Assembly (NCBI GenBank): GCA_018819225.1
Contig: JAHJQN010000004.1
Coordinates: 66,813 to 130,812 of the forward strand
Reading direction: 5' to 3'
Length of the DNA stretch: 64,000 nt
Origin: Candidatus Micrarchaeota archaeon
GTDB lineage: Archaea; Micrarchaeota; Micrarchaeia; Norongarragalinales; SBBD01
Under the pieces are notes generated by a model. The model was not told where the DNA came from. It searched no databases and saw only the letters and a program-made list of their open reading frames with translations. Made by a program: the position numbers and the translations under genes. Position 1 is the first letter of the stretch. Each line of letters begins with the position of its first letter. Of the stretch, positions 19,242 through 53,987 are shown piece after piece.

Positions 19242-21057
19242 CGGTTCCTATTTGATCGGCTTATCGGTTTCCCGTCGCTTAATGTTCATTAACGCAGGCA
19301 TTCTCGCTATTGCTTTCGGCTTGATCATCGGCACCTGGACCGTATTCTTATCGTCGCTGGTATTCGGGTTCACGACCGTTTCCATCGTCCTTGCCTCGCT
19401 TCTGATTCTCGCTATCGCGCTCCACGATCTGCCGTTTCATGAGCTCTCCAAATCCGTGAGAAAGGAATCCTACGTTCCTTACGCGTTCTTAGCAATATCC
19501 TTCCTGGCATTTCTGGTTCTTTCCTCTGCGTTGCTCCACTGGGATTCGAGTGGAAATATCATCGGCAATGGAAAAGATTTAGGATTTTATTTAGCCATTT
19601 CCACTTCAATTTCCGAGGGGAATTTTCCTCCTCAATATCCCGTTGCGGCTTCCGATCCCCTTAGCTATTATTATTTTTTCTCATTCATGGCTTCTATTTT
19701 ATTCAAAGGCGGTATACCCTTATTCATTTCGTTCAATCTTGTTTCCGCGATTTTCTTATCCGGATTATTCACCTTCGTTTTTATTATGGCCTCCTCGCTT
19801 TTCAGGAGCCATCGTACCGGAGTATTTTCGGTTTTTCTGTTATTGTTTGCCGGCGGTTTGCATTTTCTTCCCTATCTTGAATTCGTCGATCTCTCAAATC
19901 CGCAAGTTATTTCTGAGATACTCTTGAACCCTCGCTTGTTGACGCAATATCAATCGTATGGGTACCCCGTTCACAATATTCTGCTAACATCGGTTACCGC
20001 TCGACCGGACCTAGCCGGATTATTCTTTTTCACTGCAGCAGCCGCGTTTTTGTTACTGCGTAAGCGTTTAAGCTCCGTATGGATGGGGATTTCTGGAGGA
20101 TTATTCGGATTAACGGCCATGTTCAGCGTTCCCCTCGCAATGGTGACGCTATCCGCACTTGTAATCTACCTCGCGTTCTTTGATTCCGAGGCTGTAAAGA
20201 ATCGGTTTCACCTCCTCGTACCGTTTGGAATCGGTTTGGTTCTCGCATTAGTCATTCAGTTACCGATCTTTCTCCCCAAACTGGTTTCCGCGAACGCTCA
20301 CTTTGCTTTCGCACCGCTTGAATTCCTTTCCGAAACCCCGTTTTCAGATCCGCTTACGTTTTGGACAGCCAATTTTGGTTTCTGGCTGCTTGCGGGAATC
20401 GCCGGCTATTTTCTTGCTCCTTCTAAACTAAAAAAAATCGCTTTATCCCTATTACCGTCGTTTCTTTTCCTCAATCTGTTTCAATTCGCCCCCTGGTACG
20501 TTGATCAGTTCAAGTTGGCGCTTCCAGTGCTTGTCATTCTCGTGTTGCTTTCCATCCCGTTATACCGTCGGGTGTATTCCATCCGTCGGTTTGGCCCATC
20601 TTTAGTCATTCTTCTCGTTCTCTCTTCCAGTCTGACGGGTTACTTGAATGTCATTTCCATTACTCAATTCGCGAGCGCGGATGCTCCTGAACGTCCCATA
20701 TGCAACGCTTCAGCCGTGCAATTCTCGGAATTCGTCCGCTTAAACACGCCTCCATCATCTGTTTTCATTTCAGATCCTGAAACAGATGTTTCGTGCCTCA
20801 CCGCGTTCAGTGGCAGACTCGCGTTTTACTCGAACGGGAAATGGATCGAAAACCATGGCTTGAATCGAACAATAAAGGAAAAACAGAACCAGGATATGCT
20901 GAAAGGGGATTGCGAATTATTGAAACGTCTCGACATTCATTATGCTTATGAGGATGAAAATTCCGGGTGGCGCATTCCTCAATCATTGAAAGAAATCTCA
21001 ACGCTCGTTCATTCTCGAAGCGATCTCCGTCTATACCAAATTCACTGCCCAAACTGA
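19207..21057 (+). CDS. Polytopic membrane glycosyltransferase-like protein (GT-C/PMT-ArnT-like) with C-terminal soluble domain
   Basis: 616 aa. About 12 TM helices are followed by a soluble domain of about 120 aa ending ...DIHYAYEDENSGW...LRLYQIHCPN. That C-terminal domain resembles those of 32074-32607 and 33910-35829. Confidence 0.45.
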   Translation: MYIMLAAILFLIGSYLIGLSVSRRLMFINAGILAIAFGLIIGTWTVFLSSLVFGFTTVSIVLASLLILAIALHDLPFHELSKSVRKESYVPYAFLAISFLAFLVLSSALLHWDSSGNIIGNGKDLGFYLAISTSISEGNFPPQYPVAASDPLSYYYFFSFMASILFKGGIPLFISFNLVSAIFLSGLFTFVFIMASSLFRSHRTGVFSVFLLLFAGGLHFLPYLEFVDLSNPQVISEILLNPRLLTQYQSYGYPVHNILLTSVTARPDLAGLFFFTAAAAFLLLRKRLSSVWMGISGGLFGLTAMFSVPLAMVTLSALVIYLAFFDSEAVKNRFHLLVPFGIGLVLALVIQLPIFLPKLVSANAHFAFAPLEFLSETPFSDPLTFWTANFGFWLLAGIAGYFLAPSKLKKIALSLLPSFLFLNLFQFAPWYVDQFKLALPVLVILVLLSIPLYRRVYSIRRFGPSLVILLVLSSSLTGYLNVISITQFASADAPERPICNASAVQFSEFVRLNTPPSSVFISDPETDVSCLTAFSGRLAFYSNGKWIENHGLNRTIKEKQNQDMLKGDCELLKRLDIHYAYEDENSGWRIPQSLKEISTLVHSRSDLRLYQIHCPN

Positions 21058-30413: not shown

Positions 30414-31334
30414 TTGAACATGGGAGAAACTCCCGCAGTTATCCGATGGCTCAAAACAAAAGAACCACGCTTCCAATTAAAGAAAAGCGACCTGATTTCA
30501 GGTGAGGAACTAGGAGCGTTATTGGCCGCATGTGACACTGTAAAAAAACGATTCTTTATTGCGGTTTTATATGAAAGTGGTGCACGAATAGGCGAATTGC
30601 TTTCTGCCACCGTTGGAAACGTAAAAGTAGACGCACATGGCATCATGTTAAGTGTAGACGGAAAAACAGGCCCGCGTTCTATACGATTAGTAACTTCTGC
30701 CGGTCAATTCGGAGAATATCTTAACGGACATCCCGAACGCAACAATCCAGATGCTCCCTTATTTTATTCAATTAAAGACGGACAATGCAAACAATGCGAA
30801 TACTGGACCGCTGCCAAAATGATGCGTCGTTTATTCACGAAGGCGGGCGTTTCAAAAGAAAAAGCCCACTTCCATCTGTTTAGGCACAGCCGTGCAGCAG
30901 AAACGAAGCGATTCATGCCCGAAGATTACCAACGAAGATTTTTTGGATGGGCTCATGGATCGGATATGCCCAGTCATTACGGAGCATTAGATTCCAGTGA
31001 CCTAGATAACATTTTACTATCCGCTTACGGAAAAGCGCAACGGAATGCGACAATTCCCGAGATCATTAACCGAATCTGTGAGTGCTGTCATCATGAGAAC
31101 TTTCCATCATCTGCATATTGTAGTGGATGCGGATGGAAACTCGGATTAAAGGCATCTCAATTACCACTAACCGAGCGCGAAATAGCTTTACTAAAGATCA
31201 TTGCGAACGCTCCGAACTATGAACAAGTGGTTTCATCCCTTCCAACGAATGAATTGGAGAAAATTACTTCTCGATTAATTGATTTACGAGATGGGGACCG
31301 GGACATTAAGTCAGGCGCTGGGGATGGGATTTGA
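30414..31334 (+). CDS. Tyrosine recombinase / phage-type integrase (XerA-like catalytic domain) with C-terminal zinc ribbon
   Basis: 306 aa. The catalytic residues appear in the canonical order: GARIGEL (Arg I), DGKTGPRSIRL (Lys), HLFRHS (His/Arg II), WAHGS (His) and PSHYGAL (Tyr nucleophile). It also has CECCHHEN...CSGCGWK. Its stop overlaps the 3' end of tRNA-Ser(CGA). Confidence 0.8.
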   Translation: MNMGETPAVIRWLKTKEPRFQLKKSDLISGEELGALLAACDTVKKRFFIAVLYESGARIGELLSATVGNVKVDAHGIMLSVDGKTGPRSIRLVTSAGQFGEYLNGHPERNNPDAPLFYSIKDGQCKQCEYWTAAKMMRRLFTKAGVSKEKAHFHLFRHSRAAETKRFMPEDYQRRFFGWAHGSDMPSHYGALDSSDLDNILLSAYGKAQRNATIPEIINRICECCHHENFPSSAYCSGCGWKLGLKASQLPLTEREIALLKIIANAPNYEQVVSSLPTNELEKITSRLIDLRDGDRDIKSGAGDGI

Positions 31335-31441
31335 ACCCATACGGGCCAGAGGCCCACCAGATATCTGGTCTTTCAACCTTTTTTTATAGTGTAGGCGAAA
31401 GATCTCGAGTCTGGCGCGTTACCGGATTCCGCCACCCCAGC
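31316..31441 (-). tRNA. tRNA-Ser(CGA), type II, with an intron of about 41 nt in the anticodon loop
   Basis: Manual fold: acceptor GCUGGGG/CCCCAGC; D-arm GCG...CGC; anticodon stem CCAGA/UCUGG with loop CUCGAGA (anticodon CGA); long variable arm GGGCC-UCU-GGCCC; T-arm AUGGG-UUCAAAU-CCCAU; discriminator G. About 41 nt are inserted at 37/38 (AUCUUUCGCCUACACUAUAAAAAAAGGUUGAAAGACCAGAU). Confidence 0.7.
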
Positions 31442-35988: not shown

Positions 35989-36009
35989 AAAGCGGGCCCA
36001 ACGGGATTC
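35989..36009. repeat. 21-bp direct repeat copy within tRNA-Arg 3' end
   Basis: See 35926-35946. Confidence 0.6.
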
Positions 36010-36175
36010 GAACCCGCAACCTACTGGTCTCTCCCCCATCACGCTGTTGCGCCGAAGGAAAAAGGACTAGCCCTTTTCCCGGGACCGAAGCCACGACTTC
36101 CGTCTCTTCCAATAAAAAGTGAAAGAGCAAGTGGGACCGGAACCAGTCGCTCTGTCCTGGTTGAGCTATGGGCCC
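35993..36175 (-). tRNA. tRNA-Arg(CCG) with an unusually long intron (about 108 nt) at the canonical 37/38 position
   Basis: Manual fold. Exon 1: GGGCCCA-UA-GCUC-AACCAGGACA-GAGC-G-ACUGG-UUCCGG. Exon 2: A-CCAGU-AGGUU-GCGGG-UUCGAAU-CCCGU-UGGGCCC-G. The acceptor, D, anticodon and T stems pair perfectly except for one G-U pair in the T stem. The anticodon is CCG. The sequence 36029-36136 is intronic. The intron length is far above typical, so the exact exon junctions are tentative. Confidence 0.55.
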
Positions 36176-40767: not shown

Positions 40768-41541
40768 ATGTTAGAGGAGGATTTGATCGAACTGGGCCTC
40801 ACCAAGAACGAAGCAAGAGTATACCTTTCGCTTCTGAAAAAGGGGCCGCTCACCGCCCACGAGATTTCCAACGCCTCGGGCATCTATCGGCCGTCGGTAT
40901 ACGATTGCCTGAATACGTTGATGGAGCAAGGTTTGACAAGTTACATTCTTGTCGAAGGAAAGAAACGTTTCCAGGCCGCGAACCCCCGTTCGTTGGAGGA
41001 TTACTATGAACAACGTCTTCAGAAAGTGAAACAAGTGGTAGTCGAACTGTCAAAATTCTCTCCGAAAGAACGGGAAGTGGCGACCGTTGAAGTTTATCGG
41101 GGACGCAAGGCGTTGAAGAAAGCCTTCCGGGACATTCTGGTGGAATTAAAGCGAACCCGGGTGCCTCATTTGGGAATGGGCATTGACGACTCCTACTTTA
41201 TCAATGAGGATCCGTACTTCAGTGAATGGTTCATACGAAATTTGGAAAAACAAAACTTGAAAGAAAAGATGATCACGTTCGAGGGAGCAACGGGATTCGC
41301 TGGCGGAAAGACCACCGAATACCGATTTATTCCTCCGGAATTCTTCAATCCAACGAACATCCTGATTGACGGCAACTTGGTTACGATCATCATTTGGACC
41401 GAGCCGCGATATGTCATTAAAATCCGCAGCAAACAGATCTCGGAATCGTACCGCAAACAGTTCGAGCTGATGTGGCGCGGAGGTAAGAAAATGAAGTGGA
41501 CTCAATCGTTCAGGCAGCGGGTTCCTTTGAAGAACGCATAA
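40768..41541 (+). CDS. TrmB-family transcriptional regulator
   Basis: 257 aa. The N-terminal wHTH LGLTKNEARVYLSLLKKGPLTAHEISNASGIYRPSVYDCLNTLMEQGL is typical of TrmB. A C-terminal effector-binding-like domain follows. Confidence 0.75.
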   Translation: MLEEDLIELGLTKNEARVYLSLLKKGPLTAHEISNASGIYRPSVYDCLNTLMEQGLTSYILVEGKKRFQAANPRSLEDYYEQRLQKVKQVVVELSKFSPKEREVATVEVYRGRKALKKAFRDILVELKRTRVPHLGMGIDDSYFINEDPYFSEWFIRNLEKQNLKEKMITFEGATGFAGGKTTEYRFIPPEFFNPTNILIDGNLVTIIIWTEPRYVIKIRSKQISESYRKQFELMWRGGKKMKWTQSFRQRVPLKNA

Positions 41542-44672: not shown

Positions 44673-45026
44673 TTACGCTTTGGTAATTCGTTTAACGAGA
44701 ACTTCAGGATTCACAAACGCATTTTTTTCGTTGTCGAAATACGTCTGAACCGCTTTTTCGCCCACACTCTTGAAAAACGAGTCCCAGGCATCCGCATACT
44801 CCGGTTTCAATCCAGCTTTTTTCATCTTAGGAAGTTCTTCGGGGAGAAACGGAGTCAATATTACAGAGGCGTTCTCCAAATCCGTCGCGGAAGGCTTCCG
44901 AGCGAATACGCCACGCGATTTCACATCGAACTCGAACCCTTTTTCCGTAAATATGGCTTGCAATGTTTTCGCAACTGCATTACTGGAAATGCCGTGATCG
45001 CAAACCACGAGGATTTCTTTGTTCAT
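44673..45026 (-). CDS. Small Cys-motif protein, paralog 3 (CxxGxSS; PTS-EIIB-like/Rossmann-like fold suspected)
   Basis: 117 aa starting MNKEILVVCDHGISSNAVAKTL. It shares the VVVC-x-x-G-x-(R/S)-S N-terminal motif with 46124-46651 and 47224-47685. Confidence 0.4.
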   Translation of the reverse strand: MNKEILVVCDHGISSNAVAKTLQAIFTEKGFEFDVKSRGVFARKPSATDLENASVILTPFLPEELPKMKKAGLKPEYADAWDSFFKSVGEKAVQTYFDNEKNAFVNPEVLVKRITKA

Positions 45027-45591: not shown

Positions 45592-46131
45592 TTATAATCG
45601 TTCCATTCGATGTTGCAATAAACCAATTTTTTTCCTTAATATGCGTAGTGCTATGCTGGTAAGCGGAACTCCGCCTCCTTGATCAAATCCGCCGCCACCT
45701 TCAGGTTCCTCGGTTCGAAACGCAAATCCCTTTTTCTGTGCAGCCAGTGTTGAAAGAACGCCTACATCTTGGGGACCAAATGTCTCGGATTTCCAACCAT
45801 TTGCCACGAATCTAAAATGGCTGGCGGGAAAATGACCTTTTTGGTGGGGATGTGGTTCAAGTGATAGGGTAAGTCGGACTTTGTCGCCTAAATCCCCTTC
45901 AACACGGTGAGTAAGCCCACCCGTATGAACGGCACGGATCTGGTTAGACTCTTCAAATAAGTGCAATACGACTTCTCTTACTCGTCCAGGGGCCGTAACC
46001 CTTGGAAGAACGCGCAATAGCGTTCTGCGGACATTATGCAAATCCCCTTCCCGAATCTTTTCGTGATGGGTCGATAGCACTCGATCAACGAATCCTTCCC
46101 ATTCCCTCGATTTAGGTGTTGATTTAACCAT
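45592..46131 (-). CDS. HPH-motif protein family member (intact copy); possible HIT/GalT-like nucleotidyl-transfer fold
   Basis: 179 aa containing LSLEPHPHQKGHF. His-Pro-His is the GalT/HIT-branch active-site pattern. It is a paralog of the frameshifted gene at 46724-47217. It overlaps the upstream gene by 8 nt. Confidence 0.35.
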   Translation of the reverse strand: MVKSTPKSREWEGFVDRVLSTHHEKIREGDLHNVRRTLLRVLPRVTAPGRVREVVLHLFEESNQIRAVHTGGLTHRVEGDLGDKVRLTLSLEPHPHQKGHFPASHFRFVANGWKSETFGPQDVGVLSTLAAQKKGFAFRTEEPEGGGGFDQGGGVPLTSIALRILRKKIGLLQHRMERL

Positions 46132-46651
46132 TTCTATTACCGTTCCTTTTGGTACTAACTTGCAACTTGCCTTGTTTTTTCAATGCTCGAATAATCTCCT
46201 TGACCAGTAGCTTCGGATCCTTATAACCAGAAGCGTCTCTCACCGAAAAAAATCCGGGTCTGTCAACAAAAAATAAGTATGGAATTTCGGGGTGAGAAAG
46301 AACGAATTCGGGATAGTTTTTGTACATGCCGGGTTTTTTTTTCTTTCGCTTGAATTCTCGACCATTTTCCGGAGTTCTTTTTTTTGGTAAGGGTCCGATA
46401 ATGACATTCGGGTTTCCGATGTCCGGCCAAATTCGATCGCGATGTGAGTATATTGCAGAAGAAATGGGAAGGTAGCGGGCTCGGACGTTATGACCTTGTT
46501 TAGTAAAATGGGCATTCAATTCCCTCGATATTTGGCTACTGCGGTCTCCAGCCAAGCAAACGACTACGACGTCCTTCTGGGGCTGCCCCGCTCCATAGGG
46601 ATCTTGCCTAAAAAATTCAACTGGTTTATGGTATAGCTTTTTTATTGGCAT
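46124..46651 (-). CDS. Small Cys-motif protein, paralog 2 (CxxGxRSS)
   Basis: 175 aa with DVVVVCLAGDRSSQISREL near the N-terminus and a Lys-rich middle. Confidence 0.4.
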   Translation of the reverse strand: MPIKKLYHKPVEFFRQDPYGAGQPQKDVVVVCLAGDRSSQISRELNAHFTKQGHNVRARYLPISSAIYSHRDRIWPDIGNPNVIIGPLPKKRTPENGREFKRKKKKPGMYKNYPEFVLSHPEIPYLFFVDRPGFFSVRDASGYKDPKLLVKEIIRALKKQGKLQVSTKRNGNRNG

Positions 46652-46723
46652 TCAATCACTTGTTATTAATTGTATGAACTAATCTGCTTGTCTGGCCGTC
46701 TGTATTAAATCAGAAATTATTTT

Positions 46724-47217
46724 CTACATCTTCATTAAAGCTAAACGCTTACCAGGGACTCCTCCGCCCGGATCCATCGTATCTATCAATGATCCCACAA
46801 TTTCGTAATTTGTAATATCTTTCGGGCGCGCTAGCGAAAAGTGAATTCCCATATCGCGGTCTTCAAAATGTTCTCTATTCCATCCTTCAGTTACCCAATG
46901 AATGCCCATGCGGGCGTGCAGCGGTTTGCTTCCTTCACGAGAAACGAATAGAGTCAAACGCATATTATCGCCCAGGTTCCCTTCAATACGCATTTTTCGA
47001 CCGCCAAAGCTCACTGCGCGTACCCGATTTGATTTTTTAAATAAACTGCGAATAAAGCCTCTCTAGCAAAAACGGGTTCTTGGGCATGTTGTATTACGCG
47101 GATGAGTTCGCGCTGTACATGGTTTTGGTCTCCTGATCGAATTTTATCATGATGAGTGCTAACGTATCGGCGTATGTATTCTTCATTTTCTGATTCGCGA
47201 GGCCTTGGCATAACCAT
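46724..47217 (-). pseudogene. Frameshifted copy of the HPH-motif family gene (split into ORFs 47011-47217 and 46724-47014)
   Basis: The upstream ORF (YVSTHHDKIRSGDQNHVQRELIRV...) aligns with the N-terminus of 45592-46131 (VLSTHHEKIREGDLHNVRRTLLRV...). The downstream ORF (IEGNLGDNMRLTLFVS...GGGVP) aligns with its C-terminus (VEGDLGDKVRLTLSLE...GGGVP). The frames switch near KNQIGYAQ* / NRVRAVSFGG. The HPH motif is replaced by SKPLHAR. Confidence 0.5.
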
Positions 47218-47223
47218 CCAGCT

Positions 47224-47685
47224 TTACTTATGTCCCGGCACTAATTTTAGGTGTTCCGCTATACTCCACCACAATTCATGCATGGGCACTAAATCGCCCC
47301 CTTTTACCATAAACGGAAATATGGGCCGATTCCCGGCTTCCGTTACTAACAACTTCCAGTTTTTTGCGTATTCTACGGCCCCTTTGTCACGTTGGAGCCG
47401 TAAAGATTTCTCTGCGAGAGAAAGAATTTCCGATCGATCCGAAGGAGTCACGAATGCATCGGCTTTTTGTATATACTCTCGTCGACGAGCTTCTGACAAG
47501 CGTTGTAACGGAATGACAAATACCCGAACGGGATGATTCGCCAAATCAAATCGAATTTGCAATAATCGTTTAATATAACCACTGCGCGTCCCATGGTCGC
47601 ATACTACTGCAACGTGTTTTTCGAGGAGTCCTTCCACGAATCGTGCGCGTTCCCTTCCTTTCTTCGATAAATGAAGGCTCATCAT
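47224..47685 (-). CDS. Small Cys-motif protein, paralog 1 (CxxGxRS)
   Basis: 153 aa with HVAVVCDHGTRSGYIKRLL. Its start overlaps the stop of 47682-48311 by 4 nt. Confidence 0.4.
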   Translation of the reverse strand: MMSLHLSKKGRERARFVEGLLEKHVAVVCDHGTRSGYIKRLLQIRFDLANHPVRVFVIPLQRLSEARRREYIQKADAFVTPSDRSEILSLAEKSLRLQRDKGAVEYAKNWKLLVTEAGNRPIFPFMVKGGDLVPMHELWWSIAEHLKLVPGHK

Positions 47686-48311: not shown

Positions 48312-48535
48312 GACCGAATTCGCCTACTTACCCTTTGTTTTTACTTTGCAGAACGGCGAGATTTCTCATTCCTTTACACACATGCAGGGTATTTCCCGAA
48401 ATCGGATTGCTCGTTAATTCCACTTCAGTGATTGCGTCAAGAATTCTCACTTGGACGTCGCCTCCATGCCGTTTAGGACCTCTAACGTAAACAACAATTG
48501 CCGCCACATTATTCACTTGTTCTTATGAATATGAA

Positions 48536-49027
48536 CTAAATGGATAGGATTTTTTCCCATGATCTCTTATTCTGAAGTGGGATATAAAATGAGACCTCAG
48601 GAGTGTCTGGTGTTTTAATCTTTCGAAACCCTAGTGAAGTCAGCTTTGCGATGATTGCTGGCCTATAGACAGGGACGAACGCCTGTTTGACCCCCCTTTT
48701 CCTTAGCCAATCCAAACTATTACGAAACAATTGCCTTCCAACTCCCAAATACCGATGGGCTTCTGCAACATAACCAAAATAGACTATTGGTTTAGGCGGA
48801 TCGCCGATTCGTGAGAAAGCGACGCCCACCAATTTTCCATCGACTCGTGCGGTATGAACTGCATGATCCGTTCCATCAAAGAAATCGGACGCATTACTGA
48901 ATCCGGAGACTTCATAGGGACCTATCCAACGCTCGCCTCGATCTGCTGCTTTCAATAAGTCCTCAACCTCCAATCTGTTTCGGAGACTCAAGTTATGGAG
49001 TTTTTCGTATTCAACCATTTTTACCAT
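48536..49027 (-). CDS. GNAT-family N-acetyltransferase (paralog 1)
   Basis: 163 aa. KLVGVAFSRIGDPPKPIVYFGYVAEAHRYLGVGRQLF...WLRKRGVKQAFVPVYRPAIIAKLTSLGFR. The N-terminus is YEKLHNLSLRNRLEVEDLL. Confidence 0.65.
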   Translation of the reverse strand: MVKMVEYEKLHNLSLRNRLEVEDLLKAADRGERWIGPYEVSGFSNASDFFDGTDHAVHTARVDGKLVGVAFSRIGDPPKPIVYFGYVAEAHRYLGVGRQLFRNSLDWLRKRGVKQAFVPVYRPAIIAKLTSLGFRKIKTPDTPEVSFYIPLQNKRSWEKILSI

Positions 49028-49307
49028 TTATACCATCTCGCTATAACGTCTGTTTTCAAACCATCAACTCATCCATCATCTTAATATAGCCAATCCCTTT
49101 TTTTATCATTTTTGATTTCTTTGCCTTTGGAGGAAGCGTTTAGGCAAGCCCCCATGGCCCCAATTTCCCCCAGCACATTAAAATGATGAAACCACCATAT
49201 CAAAACCTCCAAACCCTCGTTTTTCCGGTTCCATCATCCCAAGAAAACGACTTGCGTACATCACCTCGTTATATTGCTACGTTGTTAATATTAGGCAAAG
49301 AGGTCGC

Positions 49308-49454
49308 TTATTTTTTCTTCGAGATGGGGGTTAAACTATTCATTTCTTTTTCAATTTTTTCAAGCGTGTTATTTATTCTCTTTAATTGAACTTCAACAGC
49401 CGAAATCAACCACCCGAATAAAAGAACGGAGAGCAGGGCTAACAAGTCATTCAT
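49308..49454 (-). CDS. Small membrane/coiled-coil protein (48 aa), below the ORF-track length cutoff
   Basis: Manual translation: MNDLLALLSVLLFGWLISAVEVQLKRINNTLEKIEKEMNSLTPISKKK. It is preceded by the conserved inverted-repeat motif at 49468-49485 and an AAGGTGGTG Shine-Dalgarno-like sequence. Confidence 0.3.
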   Translation of the reverse strand: MNDLLALLSVLLFGWLISAVEVQLKRINNTLEKIEKEMNSLTPISKKK

Positions 49455-49467
49455 TATTCACCACCTT

Positions 49468-49485
49468 GTTCTTACCCATACGAAC
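49468..49485 (-). promoter_or_regulatory. Conserved inverted-repeat motif, copy 3 (GTTCGTATGGGTAAGAAC in gene sense)
   Basis: GTTC-N10-GAAC palindrome about 13 nt upstream of the small ORF start. The other copies are at 50065-50082 and 50480-50497. Confidence 0.5.
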
Positions 49486-49488
49486 CAC

Positions 49489-50076
49489 TTATTTTATGTT
49501 ATGGGATCGTTTAAACATTTCCGCGCATTTCTCCAACAACTTCCTTTGTCTAGGGTTAAGGGCGATGTGAGAGTTTAAGGGAAGGGCGGCGATACGGCGC
49601 GCGAGATGTTCCATGAACGGGTACTCGTTGGGAGACAAAGCGGTTTTATTGCGCGTTTGGCCAGTAGGATCGTTGGAAAAGTATTCGATTCGAGCTCCGC
49701 GGCCGCCAGGCGATCGCGTCCACTTGTGTTCAACCCGGAAATAATGGCGGCCCACACCAAATTGGTTTCTACGGCTTCGGTCGGGCAAAGTCACGGGCTG
49801 AGTTGATGCGGGTGAATTCCAGGAACGAAAATCCTGAATGACGATGTCCACGCCTTTAGTATGGAGGACGACAAGACCCGTGATCCCCATGCCAGGATAA
49901 TTGGAACCGTCCGCTTGCTTGAATTGGAAATCCGCTTGAAAACCCGTTTTTCCTACAAGACCTTCGAACCGGTGAGCTTTAAACACGAGTTTTTCGGGAA
50001 GCGCAAGTTCACGCATCTCTTGAAGGTGAGGCAAACGAGATCGTTCCAAACCCTTATTTTCTTTGTTCATACCCAT
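49489..50076 (-). CDS. Hypothetical protein
   Basis: 195-aa ORF. The annotated start lies inside inverted-repeat copy 2, so the true start may be the downstream Met (MRELALPEK...). Confidence 0.35.
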   Translation of the reverse strand: MGMNKENKGLERSRLPHLQEMRELALPEKLVFKAHRFEGLVGKTGFQADFQFKQADGSNYPGMGITGLVVLHTKGVDIVIQDFRSWNSPASTQPVTLPDRSRRNQFGVGRHYFRVEHKWTRSPGGRGARIEYFSNDPTGQTRNKTALSPNEYPFMEHLARRIAALPLNSHIALNPRQRKLLEKCAEMFKRSHNIK

Positions 50077-50082
50077 ACGAAC
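50065..50082 (-). promoter_or_regulatory. Conserved inverted-repeat motif, copy 2 (GTTCGTATGGGTATGAAC)
   Basis: Identical to copy 1. It overlaps the annotated start of 49489-50076. Confidence 0.5.
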
Positions 50083-50466
50083 TCACGTTTTTTCCTTGAT
50101 ATGATAGAAACGATTCGGAACCGAATAATCCCTGCGAAGCCATTTCCTTAAAATCCGCTTCCCCCATTCAGGGTTACTTTTTTTCGTTATTTCTATCTTC
50201 GTCCTTTGCACACCGCTGCGATCCACGAGCAACAACAAATCCAGCTTGATTGGGTCCTCACCGCGGACCAACTGCAACTTACCAGTATCGAGCTCGACGA
50301 ATTTCTTTAACCTCCGCACAGCTTCCCCTTCTCCGTGCGCCGCGTTCATCACCGTGAAGTCTAAGGGGTGAAACGGAACCACGATGTGGCCATCTTCATG
50401 CAATTTGAAGGGAATGCGTTTCTGATCCAACAACTTTCCGATCTTTTCTAAAGGGCGTTCTTGCAT
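50083..50466 (-). CDS. Hypothetical protein
   Basis: 127-aa ORF. It is preceded by inverted-repeat copy 1 and a GAGGTGG Shine-Dalgarno-like sequence 7 nt before the ATG. Confidence 0.35.
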   Translation of the reverse strand: MQERPLEKIGKLLDQKRIPFKLHEDGHIVVPFHPLDFTVMNAAHGEGEAVRRLKKFVELDTGKLQLVRGEDPIKLDLLLLVDRSGVQRTKIEITKKSNPEWGKRILRKWLRRDYSVPNRFYHIKEKT

Positions 50467-50479
50467 AAAAAACCACCTC

Positions 50480-50497
50480 GTTCATACCCATACGAAC
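50480..50497 (-). promoter_or_regulatory. Conserved inverted-repeat motif, copy 1 (GTTCGTATGGGTATGAAC)
   Basis: GTTC-N10-GAAC palindrome 15-30 nt upstream of the start of 50083-50466. Confidence 0.5.
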
Positions 50498-50503
50498 CAT
50501 TTT

Positions 50504-50872
50504 TCATTTTCGTTCTTGAATGATAATAAAATTCTTTTTTCCTACTGCAGCATGCATAACGTTTACTTCTCGTCCGTGAGCCCCTAAATTCATTACTAAC
50601 CGAAGCAGGTAGCGGTGCACATTGGGAAATTCTTGCCCATATTTTCCCAATTCGACATTCGTGCGAACAGATCGCGTAAAGACCTTGACTGCTTCAGGAG
50701 TTACGGGACGTAGCCCAAGAATTTCTGCATCAGCATGAACAGCTAAAGAAATGAGTCTTTCAGTATTATTAGGGGTAAAAGGAATGCTTAAGCCCTTGCC
50801 GACCCAATGATGTTGCACACCAACACGACTAAATACTCGTGAGAGAAGCAATGAAGCGGATTCACGAACCAT
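50504..50872 (-). CDS. Hypothetical protein
   Basis: 122-aa ORF with no motif recognised. Confidence 0.3.
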   Translation of the reverse strand: MVRESASLLLSRVFSRVGVQHHWVGKGLSIPFTPNNTERLISLAVHADAEILGLRPVTPEAVKVFTRSVRTNVELGKYGQEFPNVHRYLLRLVMNLGAHGREVNVMHAAVGKKNFIIIQERK

Positions 50873-50901: not shown

Positions 50902-51228
50902 TCATCCATGTTGATAAATGTGTAATTCCCGCCCTAATTTAATGGATTTCTTATCCCTACCGCGGTAGGTCACAGTAGCTAACGTGTGCTCAATGGCATT
51001 CCGCGGAACACCTGCTTCCTGGCAGAGGCGATGTAAAATGGGCCCGTGCAATAAAATTCCTTGTTTACCGGGATATTCATCTTTCAAGACAGCTAGTAAG
51101 TGGTCTGCATGATCGTTCGTGAGACGAATCACTAAACGCCTCTGAGACCTTTCAAGATTAGAAATGATTTTGCGTCGGTTTAAAGCCTGTTGAAGCTTTT
51201 CTAAATGATTAAAATTATTGGTATTCAT
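50902..51228 (-). CDS. Hypothetical protein
   Basis: 108-aa ORF with no motif recognised. Confidence 0.3.
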   Translation of the reverse strand: MNTNNFNHLEKLQQALNRRKIISNLERSQRRLVIRLTNDHADHLLAVLKDEYPGKQGILLHGPILHRLCQEAGVPRNAIEHTLATVTYRGRDKKSIKLGRELHIYQHG

Positions 51229-51238
51229 ATATCTTTCA

Positions 51239-51577
51239 TTATTTTTTTAAAGAAATTTTGATACCCACCAACTCCTTATTCTTACGTAAATGTTCAAAAT
51301 GGAATCGAGAGGAATCGTGTCCATGGCGTTCCAAGAGAGCTCGAAGCATGACGACACGCCAGTCTCGATGGAGGCCTCCGGAAATCGGTCGTTGTATATG
51401 CTCCATTTGGCGGTCCAAGCCCAAATCTGCCCATTGCCGGTGCAAAATCCGTTCAACGGAGAGGCCATCAAATTGAGTTCCTACCTGAACCAAAACGTGG
51501 TCTTTAGCAAGGACCGGGTACAGTCTTTCCTCACTCAAAATGCGATGGAATTCCGCTGGGGACGGGACTTTAGGCAT
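51239..51577 (-). CDS. Hypothetical protein
   Basis: 112-aa ORF with no motif recognised. Confidence 0.3.
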   Translation of the reverse strand: MPKVPSPAEFHRILSEERLYPVLAKDHVLVQVGTQFDGLSVERILHRQWADLGLDRQMEHIQRPISGGLHRDWRVVMLRALLERHGHDSSRFHFEHLRKNKELVGIKISLKK

Positions 51578-52085: not shown

Positions 52086-52382
52086 GCCTCATATTACGTG
52101 AAGAATGAATGAAATACGAGAATTAATATCCGTTCCCTTCCCTGTTTTTTAGGAACAGCGCATGGACTTGAAGCGGAACCAATCGCGGCGTATCCCGAAT
52201 TAATTGAGCGGGCAGCGTATGATCCTTCCGGCGAGCAGAAATAAGGGCGGAACGTATTTTCATTTTTTGTTTTTTTCCGATTTTTTTCAAGGATAATCGC
52301 CGGGATCTTCACCAATCGCTCGAATGGAACAAGAGAAATTAACCGGAAGTTTTAGTTTATTAACTTTTTCCTTGACTTTCAC

Positions 52383-53424: not shown

Positions 53425-53667
53425 TCACCCGCTTTCATGTTTTTGTTGAAGAGTCAAAATGACTTGCTTCAACGGTAATTGGCGCGTGGCATCCGTTGAA
53501 ACGGCAATGATGGCCGGGGGGAGATTGTGACTTTTTTTGTAAAATTCAATGAACGCGCGTACGTCATTCTCTGAAAATCCGTCGAGTAGAATAATTTTTT
53601 CTGCCATCGTCTTCACCTTTTTTTGCGGTGCTTGTGGTGTTTGGAATGATGGGACAACGCATTCCAC
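53425..53667 (-). CDS. Hypothetical small protein
   Basis: 80-aa ORF. It likely starts at the internal MAEKIILLDGF, which would make it about 60 aa. Confidence 0.3.
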   Translation of the reverse strand: MECVVPSFQTPQAPQKKVKTMAEKIILLDGFSENDVRAFIEFYKKSHNLPPAIIAVSTDATRQLPLKQVILTLQQKHESG

Positions 53668-53966
53668 TGATGCAAGACCATAATATGATTACCCAGATCG
53701 TTTAAGTGATGCGTTCGCACCGTTTTGTGAGCGGAACGTGCAGGCGTTTTTCCTTGAGGCTTCAATCGAACGTGCCCGTCGGACCAAGCGGCCATTAGAG
53801 CGGATAAGGCTTTTCCTAACGGAATGCTTTCCTCGGCACATTTGGCTTTGAATTTCCGAAAAGCTCCTTCCTCCAAATTCCGAAACGTCGCGTCCATCCG
53901 GATCACCTCGAGCATACAAATACTATAACGAAAGCAAGTATTACTAATATGCGAACGCAAACTCAT
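53613..53966 (-). CDS. Ribbon-helix-helix (CopG/NikR-like) DNA-binding protein with His-rich C-terminal tail
   Basis: The likely start is MLEVIRMDATFRNLEEGAFRKFKAKCAEESIPLGKALSALMAAW, which gives a beta-strand followed by two helices. The C-terminus is HHSKHHKHRKKR. Confidence 0.45.
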   Translation of the reverse strand: MSLRSHISNTCFRYSICMLEVIRMDATFRNLEEGAFRKFKAKCAEESIPLGKALSALMAAWSDGHVRLKPQGKTPARSAHKTVRTHHLNDLGNHIMVLHQWNALSHHSKHHKHRKKR

Positions 53967-53987
53967 TATATAAAGGTTGCGGTATGA

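What the first reader, a model, noticed from the sequence alone, without database searches (positions are those of the whole stretch)
49468..50497. Three copies of a conserved GTTC-N10-GAAC inverted repeat upstream of three consecutive genes
The motif GGTTCGTATGGGTATGAAC (gene sense) occurs at 50480-50497 and 50065-50082, and as GGTTCGTATGGGTAAGAAC at 49468-49485. Each copy sits 0-15 nt from an SD-like GGTG and an ATG. These are the starts of 50083-50466, 49489-50076, and an uncalled 48-aa membrane/coiled-coil ORF at 49308-49454.

The arms GTTC/GAAC are perfect reverse complements. That points to an operator for a dimeric regulator or an RNA hairpin in the 5' leader. Identical copies in front of three adjacent genes suggest a small regulon. 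It sits at the head of the paralog array. I found no other copy in the window.
Basis: seen in the sequence. Interest (0 to 1): 0.6.

Follow-up and report, generated by a model that had tools for sequence, protein, structure and literature searches.

The report
Palindromic control motif before orphan genes
A short palindromic DNA motif sits just in front of five or six neighbouring genes of unknown function in an uncultured Micrarchaeota archaeon; it is most likely the docking site of one regulator that switches them together, which is real but fairly ordinary.

Summary
The three copies exist at the stated coordinates and are far beyond chance (3 exact; 0.03 expected). The repeat is larger than described. 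It is a 7+4+7 imperfect palindrome, GTTCnTA-N4-TAnGAAC, inside a ~31-40-nt module that includes the Shine-Dalgarno (SD) sequence and start codon. Two diverged copies (48519-48536, 46662-46679) and one doubtful copy (46142-46159) were missed. All lie within 4.4 kb, 0-13 nt before minus-strand gene starts. No other copy occurs in 81 kb of this genome.

The diverged copies differ only, or almost only, at positions that are not self-complementary. The RNA hairpin is weak (-5.6 kcal/mol at best, about 0 in three copies) and shows no covariation. Half-site centres are 11 bp apart. TATA-like boxes lie 20-26 nt upstream of four copies.

I therefore favour an operator for a dimeric DNA-binding protein overlapping internal promoters, i.e. 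a small local regulon (confidence 0.45). It is not an N-terminal coding duplication: two of the three copies are non-coding.

The adjacent genes are singletons among 5.8 billion proteins, so no comparative test is possible. No regulator is identified. New member of a known kind; modest interest.

The parts
50480..50497 (-). Copy A1 of the palindrome, GTTCGTATGGGTATGAAC. It lies 7 nt after the stop of ORF 50504-50872 and is followed by GAGGTGG, TTTTTT and the ATG of ORF 50083-50466.
50459..50502 (-). Extended module around A1 (AAATGGTTCGTATGGGTATGAACGAGGTGGT...ATG). It is 80% identical over 44 nt to the module around A3 and includes the SD and start codon.
   Evidence: (family D3)
50065..50082 (-). 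Copy A2, GTTCGTATGGGTATGAAC. It directly abuts the TGA stop of ORF 50083-50466. The ATG of ORF 49489-50076 (MGMN...) lies inside it, and no SD follows.
49468..49485 (-). Copy A3, GTTCGTATGGGTAAGAAC. It lies 3 nt after the TAA of ORF 49489-50076 and is followed by AAGGTGG, TGAATA and the ATG of the 48-aa ORF 49308-49454.
49447..49490 (-). Extended module around A3, the partner of 50459-50502.
   Evidence: D3
48513..48539 (-). Copy B4 with flanks, TTA-GTTCATATTCATAAGAAC-AAGTGA. The motif proper is 48519-48536 and matches all 12 palindromic positions. Its first base is the G of the TAG stop of the GNAT gene 48536-49027. Downstream it shares TGAATAATG with A3.
   Evidence: (D1, D9)
46656..46682 (-). 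Copy B5 with flanks, TTA-GTTCATACAATTAATAAC-AAGTGA. The motif proper is 46662-46679, with 1 mismatch to the palindrome. It lies 10 nt before the ATG of ORF 46124-46651.
   Evidence: (D9)
46142..46159 (-). Doubtful copy C6, GTTAGTACCAAAAGGAAC, with 2 mismatches. It lies 10 nt before the ATG of ORF 45592-46131 and inside the 3' end of ORF 46124-46651. It could be a chance match.
   Evidence: 2.19 hits expected at <=2 mismatches in the window
50524..50531 (-). TATA-like TTTTATTA, with 26 nt between its 3' end and base 1 of A1. It lies inside the 3' end of ORF 50504-50872.
50103..50110 (-). TATA-like TTTCTATC, with 20 nt to base 1 of A2 and 26 nt to the ATG inside A2.
49508..49515 (-). TATA-like TTTAAACG, with 22 nt to base 1 of A3. 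The same 8-mer is the best TATA-box match upstream of two apparently leaderless genes of this window (starts 32009 and 55936).
46703..46710 (-). TATA-like ATTTAATA, with 23 nt to base 1 of B5.
50083..50466 (-). 127-aa ORF downstream of A1. It is a singleton: no homologue among 5.8 billion proteins and no family hit.
49489..50076 (-). 195-aa ORF whose start codon lies in A2; a singleton.
49308..49454 (-). 48-aa ORF downstream of A3, with a hydrophobic N-terminus. It is called in the ENA annotation.
48328..48516 (-). 62-aa ORF (GTG start, start uncertain) downstream of B4. It may be a fragment of the PTS-IIB-like paralogue family.
46124..46651 (-). 175-aa ORF downstream of B5; a singleton. Its paralogues are 47224-47685 and 44673-45026 (weak PTS_IIB-like hit).
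40768..41541 (+). TrmB-family winged-helix regulator, a candidate binder only. No link to the motif has been shown.
   Evidence: PF01978, E = 2.7e-17

Best explanation
The motif is a DNA operator: an 18-bp imperfect palindrome, GTTCnTA-N4-TAnGAAC, whose half-site centres lie 11 bp (one helical turn) apart. A homodimeric DNA-binding protein, or two dimers of a ribbon-helix-helix type protein, would bind it. A copy sits immediately upstream of the translation start of five (perhaps six) genes in a lineage-specific, same-strand array of orphan genes in a Micrarchaeota genome.

In this genome, first genes are leaderless, with a TATA box ending 19-27 nt before the ATG. Four motif copies have a TATA-like box ending 20-26 nt upstream. 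The motif would therefore cover roughly +1 to +18 of internal promoters that lie in the 3' ends of the preceding genes. A protein bound there would block RNA polymerase recruitment, as classical archaeal repressors do, so the genes would be co-repressed and co-induced as a small local regulon.

Because the operator occupies the start of the transcript, these genes carry a ~31-nt leader with a Shine-Dalgarno sequence. In copy A2 the operator instead overlaps the first four codons.

Shown: the copies, their palindromic architecture, their position, and a substitution pattern that spares the symmetric positions. Inferred: the promoters, protein binding, and repression. The regulator is unidentified.
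For: (1) Copy number and clustering are far beyond chance: 3 exact copies against 0.03 expected, and 5 palindrome matches at <=1 mismatch against 0.09 expected. All lie within 46.1-50.5 kb, with none elsewhere in the window or in 17 kb of flanking genome.

(2) Every copy ends 0-13 nt before a minus-strand start codon. Only about 5% of the window lies that close to a called start.

(3) Copies B4 and B5 were found by position-agnostic searches. They differ from the A copies at 4 and 6 positions, of which 4/4 and 5/6 fall in the six non-self-complementary positions (hypergeometric P = 0.005 and 0.004). B4 and B5 are related to each other, so these two tests are not independent. Flanks beyond about 45 nt are unrelated.

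(4) The RNA alternative is weak. The hairpin scores -5.6/-5.7 kcal/mol in A1/A2 but -1.5, -1.6 and +2.0 in A3, B4 and B5. Folding z-scores are -0.3 to -1.35. There is zero covariation, and position 5/14 pairs in only 2 of 6 copies.

(5) TATA-like 8-mers (<=2 mismatches to TTTAWATA) end 20-26 nt upstream of 4 of 6 copies, against a 7-8% background. This matches the TATA-to-start spacing seen upstream of 20 apparently leaderless genes in the window.

(6) The organism is an archaeon, shown by a Csl4 equivalog hit and the NCBI name 'Candidatus Micrarchaeota archaeon'. Operators overlapping the transcription start are the usual archaeal repression geometry (my own knowledge of MDR1, LrpA, Phr and TrmB).
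Against: There is no comparative support. The three motif-adjacent proteins tested are singletons, and the motif is absent from the other collections.

The TATA-like boxes are weak (2 mismatches each). A third of motif-less gene starts in the array (5 of 15) also have one, so against that base rate 4 of 6 is not significant. B4 has none at the right distance.

The genes are tightly packed on one strand (intergenic gaps of 6-37 nt) and are SD-led. In this genome that is typical of operon-internal genes, so the motif may be intercistronic rather than at a transcription start.

The three A copies are also identical at non-palindromic positions and share the SD and spacing. Much of the identity therefore reflects recent duplication of a whole module rather than selection on contacts.

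No regulator gene carries the motif at its own promoter.
Confidence: 0.45

Rival explanations
1. A duplicated junction or mobile mini-module with no dedicated regulator. A ~40-nt cassette (A-rich tract, palindrome, SD, spacer, ATG) was copied in front of unrelated genes by recombination, gene conversion or cassette-wise gene acquisition. It now serves at most as a generic ribosome-binding or 5'-UTR module.
For: A1 and A3 share 44 nt at 80% identity, including the SD and an identical 34-nt distance from an upstream ATG/GTG to the real ATG. A3 and B4 share TGAATAATG downstream of the motif. B4 and B5 share 27 nt at 81% identity. Flanking genes are unrelated. Identity extends to the non-palindromic centre TGGG in all three A copies. 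Spacing between copies (415, 597, 949, 1857, 520 nt) is cassette-like.
Against: A neutral relic does not explain why changes between the A and B subfamilies avoid the self-complementary positions. It also does not explain why a 31-nt block survives while everything around it, including paralogous coding sequence, has diverged beyond recognition. No recombinase, transposase or phage gene was found in or near the array. No copies occur elsewhere in 81 kb.
Confidence: 0.2
2. An RNA element: a 7-bp stem with a 4-nt loop in the intercistronic region or 5' leader, directly 5' of the SD. In A2 it would contain the start codon. It would act as a translational operator, an mRNA-stabilising or processing hairpin, or a coupling device that is opened by ribosomes terminating on the upstream gene.
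For: The motif lies in tiny intercistronic spacers, 0-7 nt after the upstream stop in four copies and 1-2 nt before the SD. SD-led genes are typically operon-internal in this genome. In A1 and A2 position 5/14 is G.U, so the sense-strand hairpin (-5.7 kcal/mol) is more stable than the antisense one (-1.6). All asymmetric parts have the same orientation relative to the genes.
Against: The hairpin is marginal at best and is lost in A3, B4 and B5 (-1.5, -1.6, +2.0 kcal/mol). It is not in the minimum-free-energy fold of the A3 region, and the z-scores are not significant. No pair covaries and every departure breaks pairing. No Rfam family matches. Both arms are conserved in sequence, which a plain stem does not require.
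Confidence: 0.15
3. A shared core-promoter or initially-transcribed module without a specific repressor. The conserved block is the initiator plus leader of a promoter class, read by the general machinery or by a variant TBP/TFB, giving these genes a common expression level.
For: TATA-like boxes sit at the right distance in four copies, and an A-rich tract lies just upstream of A1-A3. Conservation extends beyond the palindrome on both sides.
Against: The roughly 20 apparently leaderless promoters of the window show no such element downstream of the TATA box. The palindromic symmetry would remain unexplained.
Confidence: 0.08
4. A conserved N-terminal coding duplication (MGMN / MVRMGMN).
For: In A2 the motif encodes the first four codons of the 195-aa ORF. 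ATGGTTCGT also starts ORF 50504-50872 (MVRE), and ATGAACAAAGAA starts both the 195-aa ORF (from its second ATG) and ORF 44673-45026.
Against: In A1 and A3 the motif is intergenic. The ATG/GTG-GTT-CGT frame is +1 relative to the downstream ORF in both, and in A3 it ends after 13 codons. Strong SDs at canonical spacing mark the downstream ATGs. B4 and B5 do not encode the peptide.
Confidence: 0.03
5. Recombination sites bounding gene cassettes: an integron-like CALIN array with unusually short attC-like sites.
For: This is a tandem array of short, same-strand orphan ORFs interspersed with palindromic sites, which is the general architecture described for archaeal integrons and CALINs (PMC9668308).
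Against: The site is an 18-bp palindrome in spacers of 6-37 nt, not 57-141 nt. Its arms read GTTCGTA...TAYGAAC, whereas attC sites have RYYYAAC...GTTRRRY in the opposite order (own knowledge). No tyrosine recombinase was found among the ORFs scanned or in the ENA gene annotations of the loci around the array. The DNA and RNA folds show no long imperfect hairpin.
Confidence: 0.03

Closest known systems
Archaeal repressor operators overlapping the transcription start (e.g. MDR1, LrpA, Phr, and TrmB/TrmBL1 at the TGM motif TATCAC-N5-GTGATA)
   Same: A palindromic site of 16-20 bp with half-sites about one helical turn apart. It lies just downstream of a TATA-like box, is repeated at several promoters of a functionally linked gene set, and predicts steric block of RNA polymerase recruitment.
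   Different: The sequence matches none of these motifs that I know. The binder is unknown. The promoters are only inferred and would lie inside the preceding genes. The copies are nearly identical modules that include the SD, which suggests spread by duplication.
SurR operator of Thermococcales (GTTn3AAC, extended GTTn3AACn5GTT; PMC12162507)
   Same: Both are GTT...AAC palindromes in an archaeon that control several transcription units.
   Different: The spacing is GTT-N12-AAC here and not N3. Extra conserved TA dinucleotides are present. The phylum differs, and no SurR-like gene was identified.
Cheo/DinR box of Gram-positive LexA (GAAC-N4-GTTC; own knowledge)
   Same: The same tetranucleotides, GAAC and GTTC, serve as half-site cores of an operator.
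   Different: The order is inverted (GTTC...GAAC) and the spacing is N10. The organism is an archaeon, and there is no LexA or SOS gene context.
REP / intercistronic palindromic elements of bacterial operons
   Same: A short imperfect palindrome placed right after stop codons between co-directional genes.
   Different: REPs form stable hairpins and occur in tens to hundreds of copies genome-wide. Here the hairpin is marginal or absent, and the copies are confined to 4.4 kb of the 81 kb examined.
Integron attC sites / CALIN arrays (archaeal examples: PMC9668308)
   Same: Arrays of short same-strand orphan ORFs separated by palindromic sites.
   Different: The length, core-site consensus and arm order do not fit, and there is no integrase.

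Membership tests
Transcription-factor operator (dimeric binder) / local regulon | Dyad-symmetric site with half-sites about one helical turn apart | tested here: met
   12 of 18 positions are self-complementary, GTTCnTA-N4-TAnGAAC, and the half-site centres are 11 bp apart (sequence).
Transcription-factor operator (dimeric binder) / local regulon | Several copies at gene 5' regions, more than chance | tested here: met
   5 hits at <=1 mismatch against 0.09 expected. All lie 0-13 nt upstream of start codons.
Transcription-factor operator (dimeric binder) / local regulon | Symmetric (contact) positions conserved while other positions drift | tested here: met
   In B4, 4 of 4 differences from the A copies fall in non-symmetric positions; in B5, 5 of 6 do (P about 0.005 each, not independent).
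Transcription-factor operator (dimeric binder) / local regulon | Site lies in a promoter, in a defined position relative to TATA/TSS | tested here: inconclusive
   TATA-like 8-mers lie 20-26 nt upstream in 4 of 6 copies against a 7-8% background. They carry 2 mismatches each, and 5 of 15 motif-less starts in the array also have one. There are no TSS data.
Transcription-factor operator (dimeric binder) / local regulon | A cognate DNA-binding protein that binds the site | not testable with these tools
   The candidates are the TrmB-like protein 40768-41541 and an unverified RHH-like ORF at 53613-53915 (no family hit). The AF2 model of the small ORF 50902-51228 is unusable (pLDDT 51).
Transcription-factor operator (dimeric binder) / local regulon | Conservation of the site at orthologous promoters in related genomes | not testable with these tools
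   The three adjacent proteins tested have no homologue. The motif is found elsewhere only as single chance hits in unrelated bacteria and not at all in viral contigs.
Structured RNA element (leader or intercistronic hairpin) | Stable fold, better than shuffled sequence | tested here: not met
   Z-scores are -0.3 to -1.35. The hairpin energies are -5.7, -5.6, -1.5, -1.6 and +2.0 kcal/mol.
Structured RNA element (leader or intercistronic hairpin) | Compensatory base changes | tested here: not met
   0 pairs change on both sides, and every change breaks a pair. Only six related sequences are available, so power is low.
Structured RNA element (leader or intercistronic hairpin) | Match to a described RNA family | tested here: not met
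   Rfam finds only tRNAs at gathering thresholds. At E <= 5 nothing matches at the motifs.
REP-like dispersed palindromic repeats | Many copies dispersed over the genome | tested here: inconclusive
   No copy lies outside 46.1-50.5 kb in the 81 kb examined. The remaining ~630 kb of the contig could not be read.
Integron attC / CALIN | 57-141-nt site with RYYYAAC ... GTTRRRY cores that folds as a long imperfect hairpin | tested here: not met
   The palindrome is 18 bp, in spacers of 6-37 nt. Its arms GTTCGTA/TAYGAAC are in the opposite order. No extended hairpin is predicted. The consensus is from my own knowledge; the array architecture is from PMC9668308.
Integron attC / CALIN | Integron integrase nearby (optional for CALINs) | tested here: not met
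   No recombinase domain was found among the ORFs scanned, which include most larger ORFs between 29 and 56 kb, or in the ENA gene annotations of the loci around the array.
SurR-type GTTn3AAC operator | GTT and AAC separated by 3 nt | tested here: not met
   The separation here is 12 nt. The motif definition is from PMC12162507.

The most novel reading that the evidence does not exclude
The ~40-nt block would be a portable expression module (palindrome + SD + start) that spreads in front of newly acquired or fast-evolving orphan genes in a DPANN archaeon. It would be either a miniature mobile regulatory element or a new, very short kind of cassette-boundary recombination site. On that reading the array is a gene-capture platform and not an ordinary regulon.
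Probability: 0.06. Interest if true: 0.7.

Novelty: new member of a known kind. Interest (0 to 1): 0.3.

Why it matters
If the operator reading is right, it gives a concrete, testable handle on gene regulation in Micrarchaeota. These are uncultured, host-dependent DPANN archaea for which I know of no mapped regulon, and a full-text search for the motif found no paper. The handle consists of a defined 18-bp site, five target genes that are all lineage-specific orphans, and a short list of candidate binders. Co-regulation would also be the first functional clue linking these orphan genes.

The result is local to one metagenome-assembled genome, has no comparative support, and does not change any general concept.

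Tried and rejected
1. Genome-wide and cross-genome search for the exact motif. The scan of GTDB species representatives gave 9 single hits in unrelated bacteria. JGI metagenomes gave 19 single hits. None of these loci encodes a relative of the array proteins; from the flanks most look like chance matches, several apparently inside coding sequence (reading VRMG(M/K)N in the motif's frame), though frames were not checked. IMG/VR gave 0 hits for the exact motif and for a motif+SD pattern. The source genome is in none of these collections.

2. Comparative genomics through homologues. The 127-aa, 175-aa and 195-aa proteins each hit only themselves among 5.8 billion sequences, so orthologous promoters cannot be examined.

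3. Extending the genome. Two end proteins were not on record. Two others gave about 17 kb beyond the window, with no further copy.

4. Viral, defence or integron origin of the array. There are no significant PHROG hits (best E = 0.049), no PADLOC hits and no recombinase hits.

5. Regulator hunt. The small ORFs 50902-51228, 51239-51577, 50083-50466 and 50504-50872 align only weakly. The AF2 model is unusable (pLDDT 51), so no fold search was run.

6. Bacterial-type promoter and terminator scan. It was uninformative, with counts at or below shuffle levels.

7. An extra exact 11-mer, TCGTATGGGTA, at 19954-19964 lies inside a membrane-protein ORF (QSYGYP) and is a chance match.

8. Literature search for the motif string found 0 papers.
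Full report
**Observation**

Reading the minus strand of 49200-50700 and a pattern search confirm three copies. GTTCGTATGGGTATGAAC is at 50480-50497 (A1) and 50065-50082 (A2), and GTTCGTATGGGTAAGAAC is at 49468-49485 (A3). Chance expectation is 0.03 matches per window even with three mismatches allowed.

- A1 lies 7 nt after the stop of ORF 50504-50872. It is followed by GAGGTGG, TTTTTT and the ATG of the 127-aa ORF 50083-50466.
- A3 lies 3 nt after the stop of the 195-aa ORF. It is followed by AAGGTGG, TGAATA and the ATG of the 48-aa ORF 49308-49454.
- A2 is different. The TGA of the 127-aa ORF abuts it, no SD follows, and the ATG of the 195-aa ORF (MGMN...) lies inside the motif.

The motif is therefore translated in one copy and non-coding in two. 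In A1 and A3 the frame opened by the upstream ATG/GTG-GTT-CGT is +1 relative to the real ORF.

**The repeat is larger and has more members than described**

The A sequence is self-complementary at 12 of 18 positions, giving GTTCnTA-N4-TAnGAAC and not only GTTC/GAAC.

A1 and A3 share a 44-nt block at 80% identity that includes the SD (D3). In both, 34 nt separate an upstream ATG/GTG from the real start codon.

Position-agnostic searches also found two more copies.
- GTTCATATTCATAAGAAC is at 48519-48536 (B4).
- GTTCATACAATTAATAAC is at 46662-46679 (B5). It shares a 27-nt block with B4, TTAGTTCATAnnnnTAAkAACAAGTGA (D9).

The palindrome pattern gives 5 hits at <=1 mismatch against 0.09 expected. 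A sixth hit with two mismatches (46142-46159, C6) could be chance, since 2.19 hits are expected at that stringency.

All copies lie between 46.1 and 50.5 kb and end 0-13 nt before a minus-strand start codon. Only about 5% of the window lies that close to a called start. A3 and B4 also share TGAATAATG between the motif and the start. DNA beyond about 45 nt around B4 and B5 is unrelated. No further copy occurs in the rest of the window or in about 17 kb beyond its two ends.

**Context**

The window comes from a 709-kb contig of an ENA metagenome assembly. NCBI names the proteins as from 'Candidatus Micrarchaeota archaeon'. An exosome Csl4 equivalog, a Sua5/YrdC-domain protein (PF01300, in the ENA annotation) and TrmB fit an archaeon.

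The motif copies lie in a same-strand array (about 43.5-53.9 kb) of small genes. Most have no Pfam, NCBIfam, PHROG or PADLOC hit. The exceptions are three GNAT paralogues, three weakly PTS-IIB-like paralogues and a duplicated 179-aa family, one copy of which is split.

The three motif-adjacent proteins tested (127, 175 and 195 aa) match only themselves among 5.8 billion proteins. All array ORFs nevertheless score best in their called frame with a codon model trained on the window's housekeeping genes, although lower than those genes. They are probably real, lineage-specific genes. No recombinase or phage gene was found.

**DNA site or RNA structure?**

As RNA, the motif would form a 7-bp stem with a 4-nt loop. 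That stem scores -5.7 and -5.6 kcal/mol in A1 and A2, but only -1.5, -1.6 and +2.0 kcal/mol in A3, B4 and B5. It is absent from the minimum-energy fold of the A3 region, and none of the regions folds significantly better than shuffles. On the alignment of six copies no pair covaries, every change breaks pairing, and position 5/14 pairs in only two copies. No Rfam family matches.

By contrast, the differences of B4 and B5 from the A copies fall 4/4 and 5/6 in the six positions that are not self-complementary in A (P about 0.005 each; the two are related, so not independent). Sequence conservation of both half-sites, drift at the centre and at the symmetric 'n', and an 11-bp half-site spacing are what a dimeric DNA-binding protein would impose. 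A plain stem would not impose them.

**Promoter geometry**

Upstream regions of the window's genes show that first genes are leaderless. A TTTAWATA-like box ends 19-27 nt (mostly 21-24) before the ATG, while operon-internal genes use GAGGTG-type SDs.

A TATA-like 8-mer (<=2 mismatches) ends 26, 20, 22 and 21-23 nt before base 1 of A1, A2, A3 and B5 respectively. The background for such a box in that interval is 7-8%. The A3 box, TTTAAACG, is the same 8-mer that gives the best TATA match upstream of two apparently leaderless genes of the window.

This would place the motif at about +1 to +18 of internal promoters. It would explain why these genes, unlike most first genes here, carry a leader with an SD. 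It would also explain why the operator runs into the coding sequence in A2, where the box ends 26 nt before the internal ATG.

The inference is weak, for three reasons. The boxes are imperfect. Five of 15 motif-less starts in the array have one too. B4 has none at the right distance.

**Verdict on mechanism**

I favour an operator for a dimeric (or dimer-of-dimers) DNA-binding protein that represses a small local regulon of orphan genes by occupying the transcription start (confidence 0.45).

The main rival is that the ~40-nt block is a duplicated junction or expression module with no dedicated regulator (0.2). That reading explains the identity at non-palindromic positions and the shared SD and spacing. 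It does not explain the symmetric pattern of conservation.

An RNA-level role next to the SD keeps 0.15, because of the tight link to stop and start codons and the G.U pair in A1 and A2. A generic promoter module (0.08), a coding duplication (0.03) and attC-like recombination sites (0.03) are minor. For the last, the site length, the core consensus and order, and the lack of an integrase all fail.

**Comparison with known systems**

The element works like the operators of archaeal repressors that overlap the transcription start. By sequence it matches none I know: SurR is GTTn3AAC, the TGM is TATCAC-N5-GTGATA, and the Gram-positive Cheo box is GAAC-N4-GTTC in the opposite order (the last two from my own knowledge). 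A full-text search for the motif string found no paper.

The 'RHH' ORF at 53613-53966 has no family support. Its ORF start directly follows a TTTATATA box, so the real start is probably the ATG at 53915, the 100-aa product called in the ENA annotation. Neither gene has a motif copy nearby.

**Novelty and interest**

This is a new, unreported instance of a familiar kind of feature: a putative operator and a small regulon. It occurs in a poorly known archaeal lineage and in front of genes with no relatives anywhere. Interest is 0.3. The most novel reading not excluded is a portable expression or cassette-boundary module in a DPANN gene-capture array, at about 6% probability.

Noticed in passing
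window 31316-31441 (-) and 35993-36175 (-): Rfam finds two tRNA matches of 126 and 183 nt that cover the full 71-position model. ARAGORN did not report them. They are probably intron-containing archaeal tRNA genes.
   Followed up: no
window 46724-47217 (-): The ORFs 47011-47217 and 46724-47014 match the N- and C-terminal parts of the 179-aa paralogue 45592-46131 (E = 2e-12 and 3e-10). This looks like a split or frameshifted pseudogene copy, or an assembly error.
   Followed up: partly
window-wide, e.g. upstream of starts at 1522, 23696, 24707, 28516, 43165, 55936: First genes have a TTTAWATA-like box ending 19-27 nt before the ATG and no SD, which suggests leaderless transcripts. Operon-internal genes carry GAGGTG-type SDs. 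This is a useful promoter model for the organism.
   Followed up: partly
window 50864-50872 (-) versus 50492-50500 (-): ORF 50504-50872 starts with ATGGTTCGT, the same 9 nt that run from just upstream into the left arm of copy A1 and that follow a similar A-rich tract. It may be a left half-site or a relic of a further module copy.
   Followed up: no
window 45015-45026 (-) versus 50059-50070 (-): ORF 44673-45026 starts with ATGAACAAAGAA, identical to the 12 nt running from the second ATG of copy A2 into the 195-aa ORF. The sequence upstream of it does not match the left half of the motif.
   Followed up: no
window 50467-50472 (-): A T6 run lies between the SD and the ATG of the 127-aa ORF. With T5 the upstream ATGGTTCGT frame would join this ORF in frame (MVRMGMNEVVF-MQER...). 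In archaea an oligo-T run is also a potential termination signal.
   Followed up: no
window 49028-49307 and 52086-52382: Two gaps of about 280-300 nt in the otherwise tightly packed array lack a convincing ORF. The first contains AACGAGGTGATG, which resembles the 3' end of the module plus an SD. They could hold promoters, a small RNA or decayed genes.
   Followed up: no
window 53916-53975 (-): A perfect TTTATATA box directly abuts the ATG at 53966 of the 'RHH' ORF. The true start is therefore probably the ATG at 53915, the 100-aa product called in the ENA annotation. No Pfam or NCBIfam family supports the RHH label.
   Followed up: partly
L030 (Logan SRR6514730 contig, 57.9 kb): At least four window proteins (those, and so at least part of this region) are encoded identically on a second contig, which for one of them is an independent Logan assembly of run SRR6514730. 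That run may allow strain comparison of the array.
   Followed up: no
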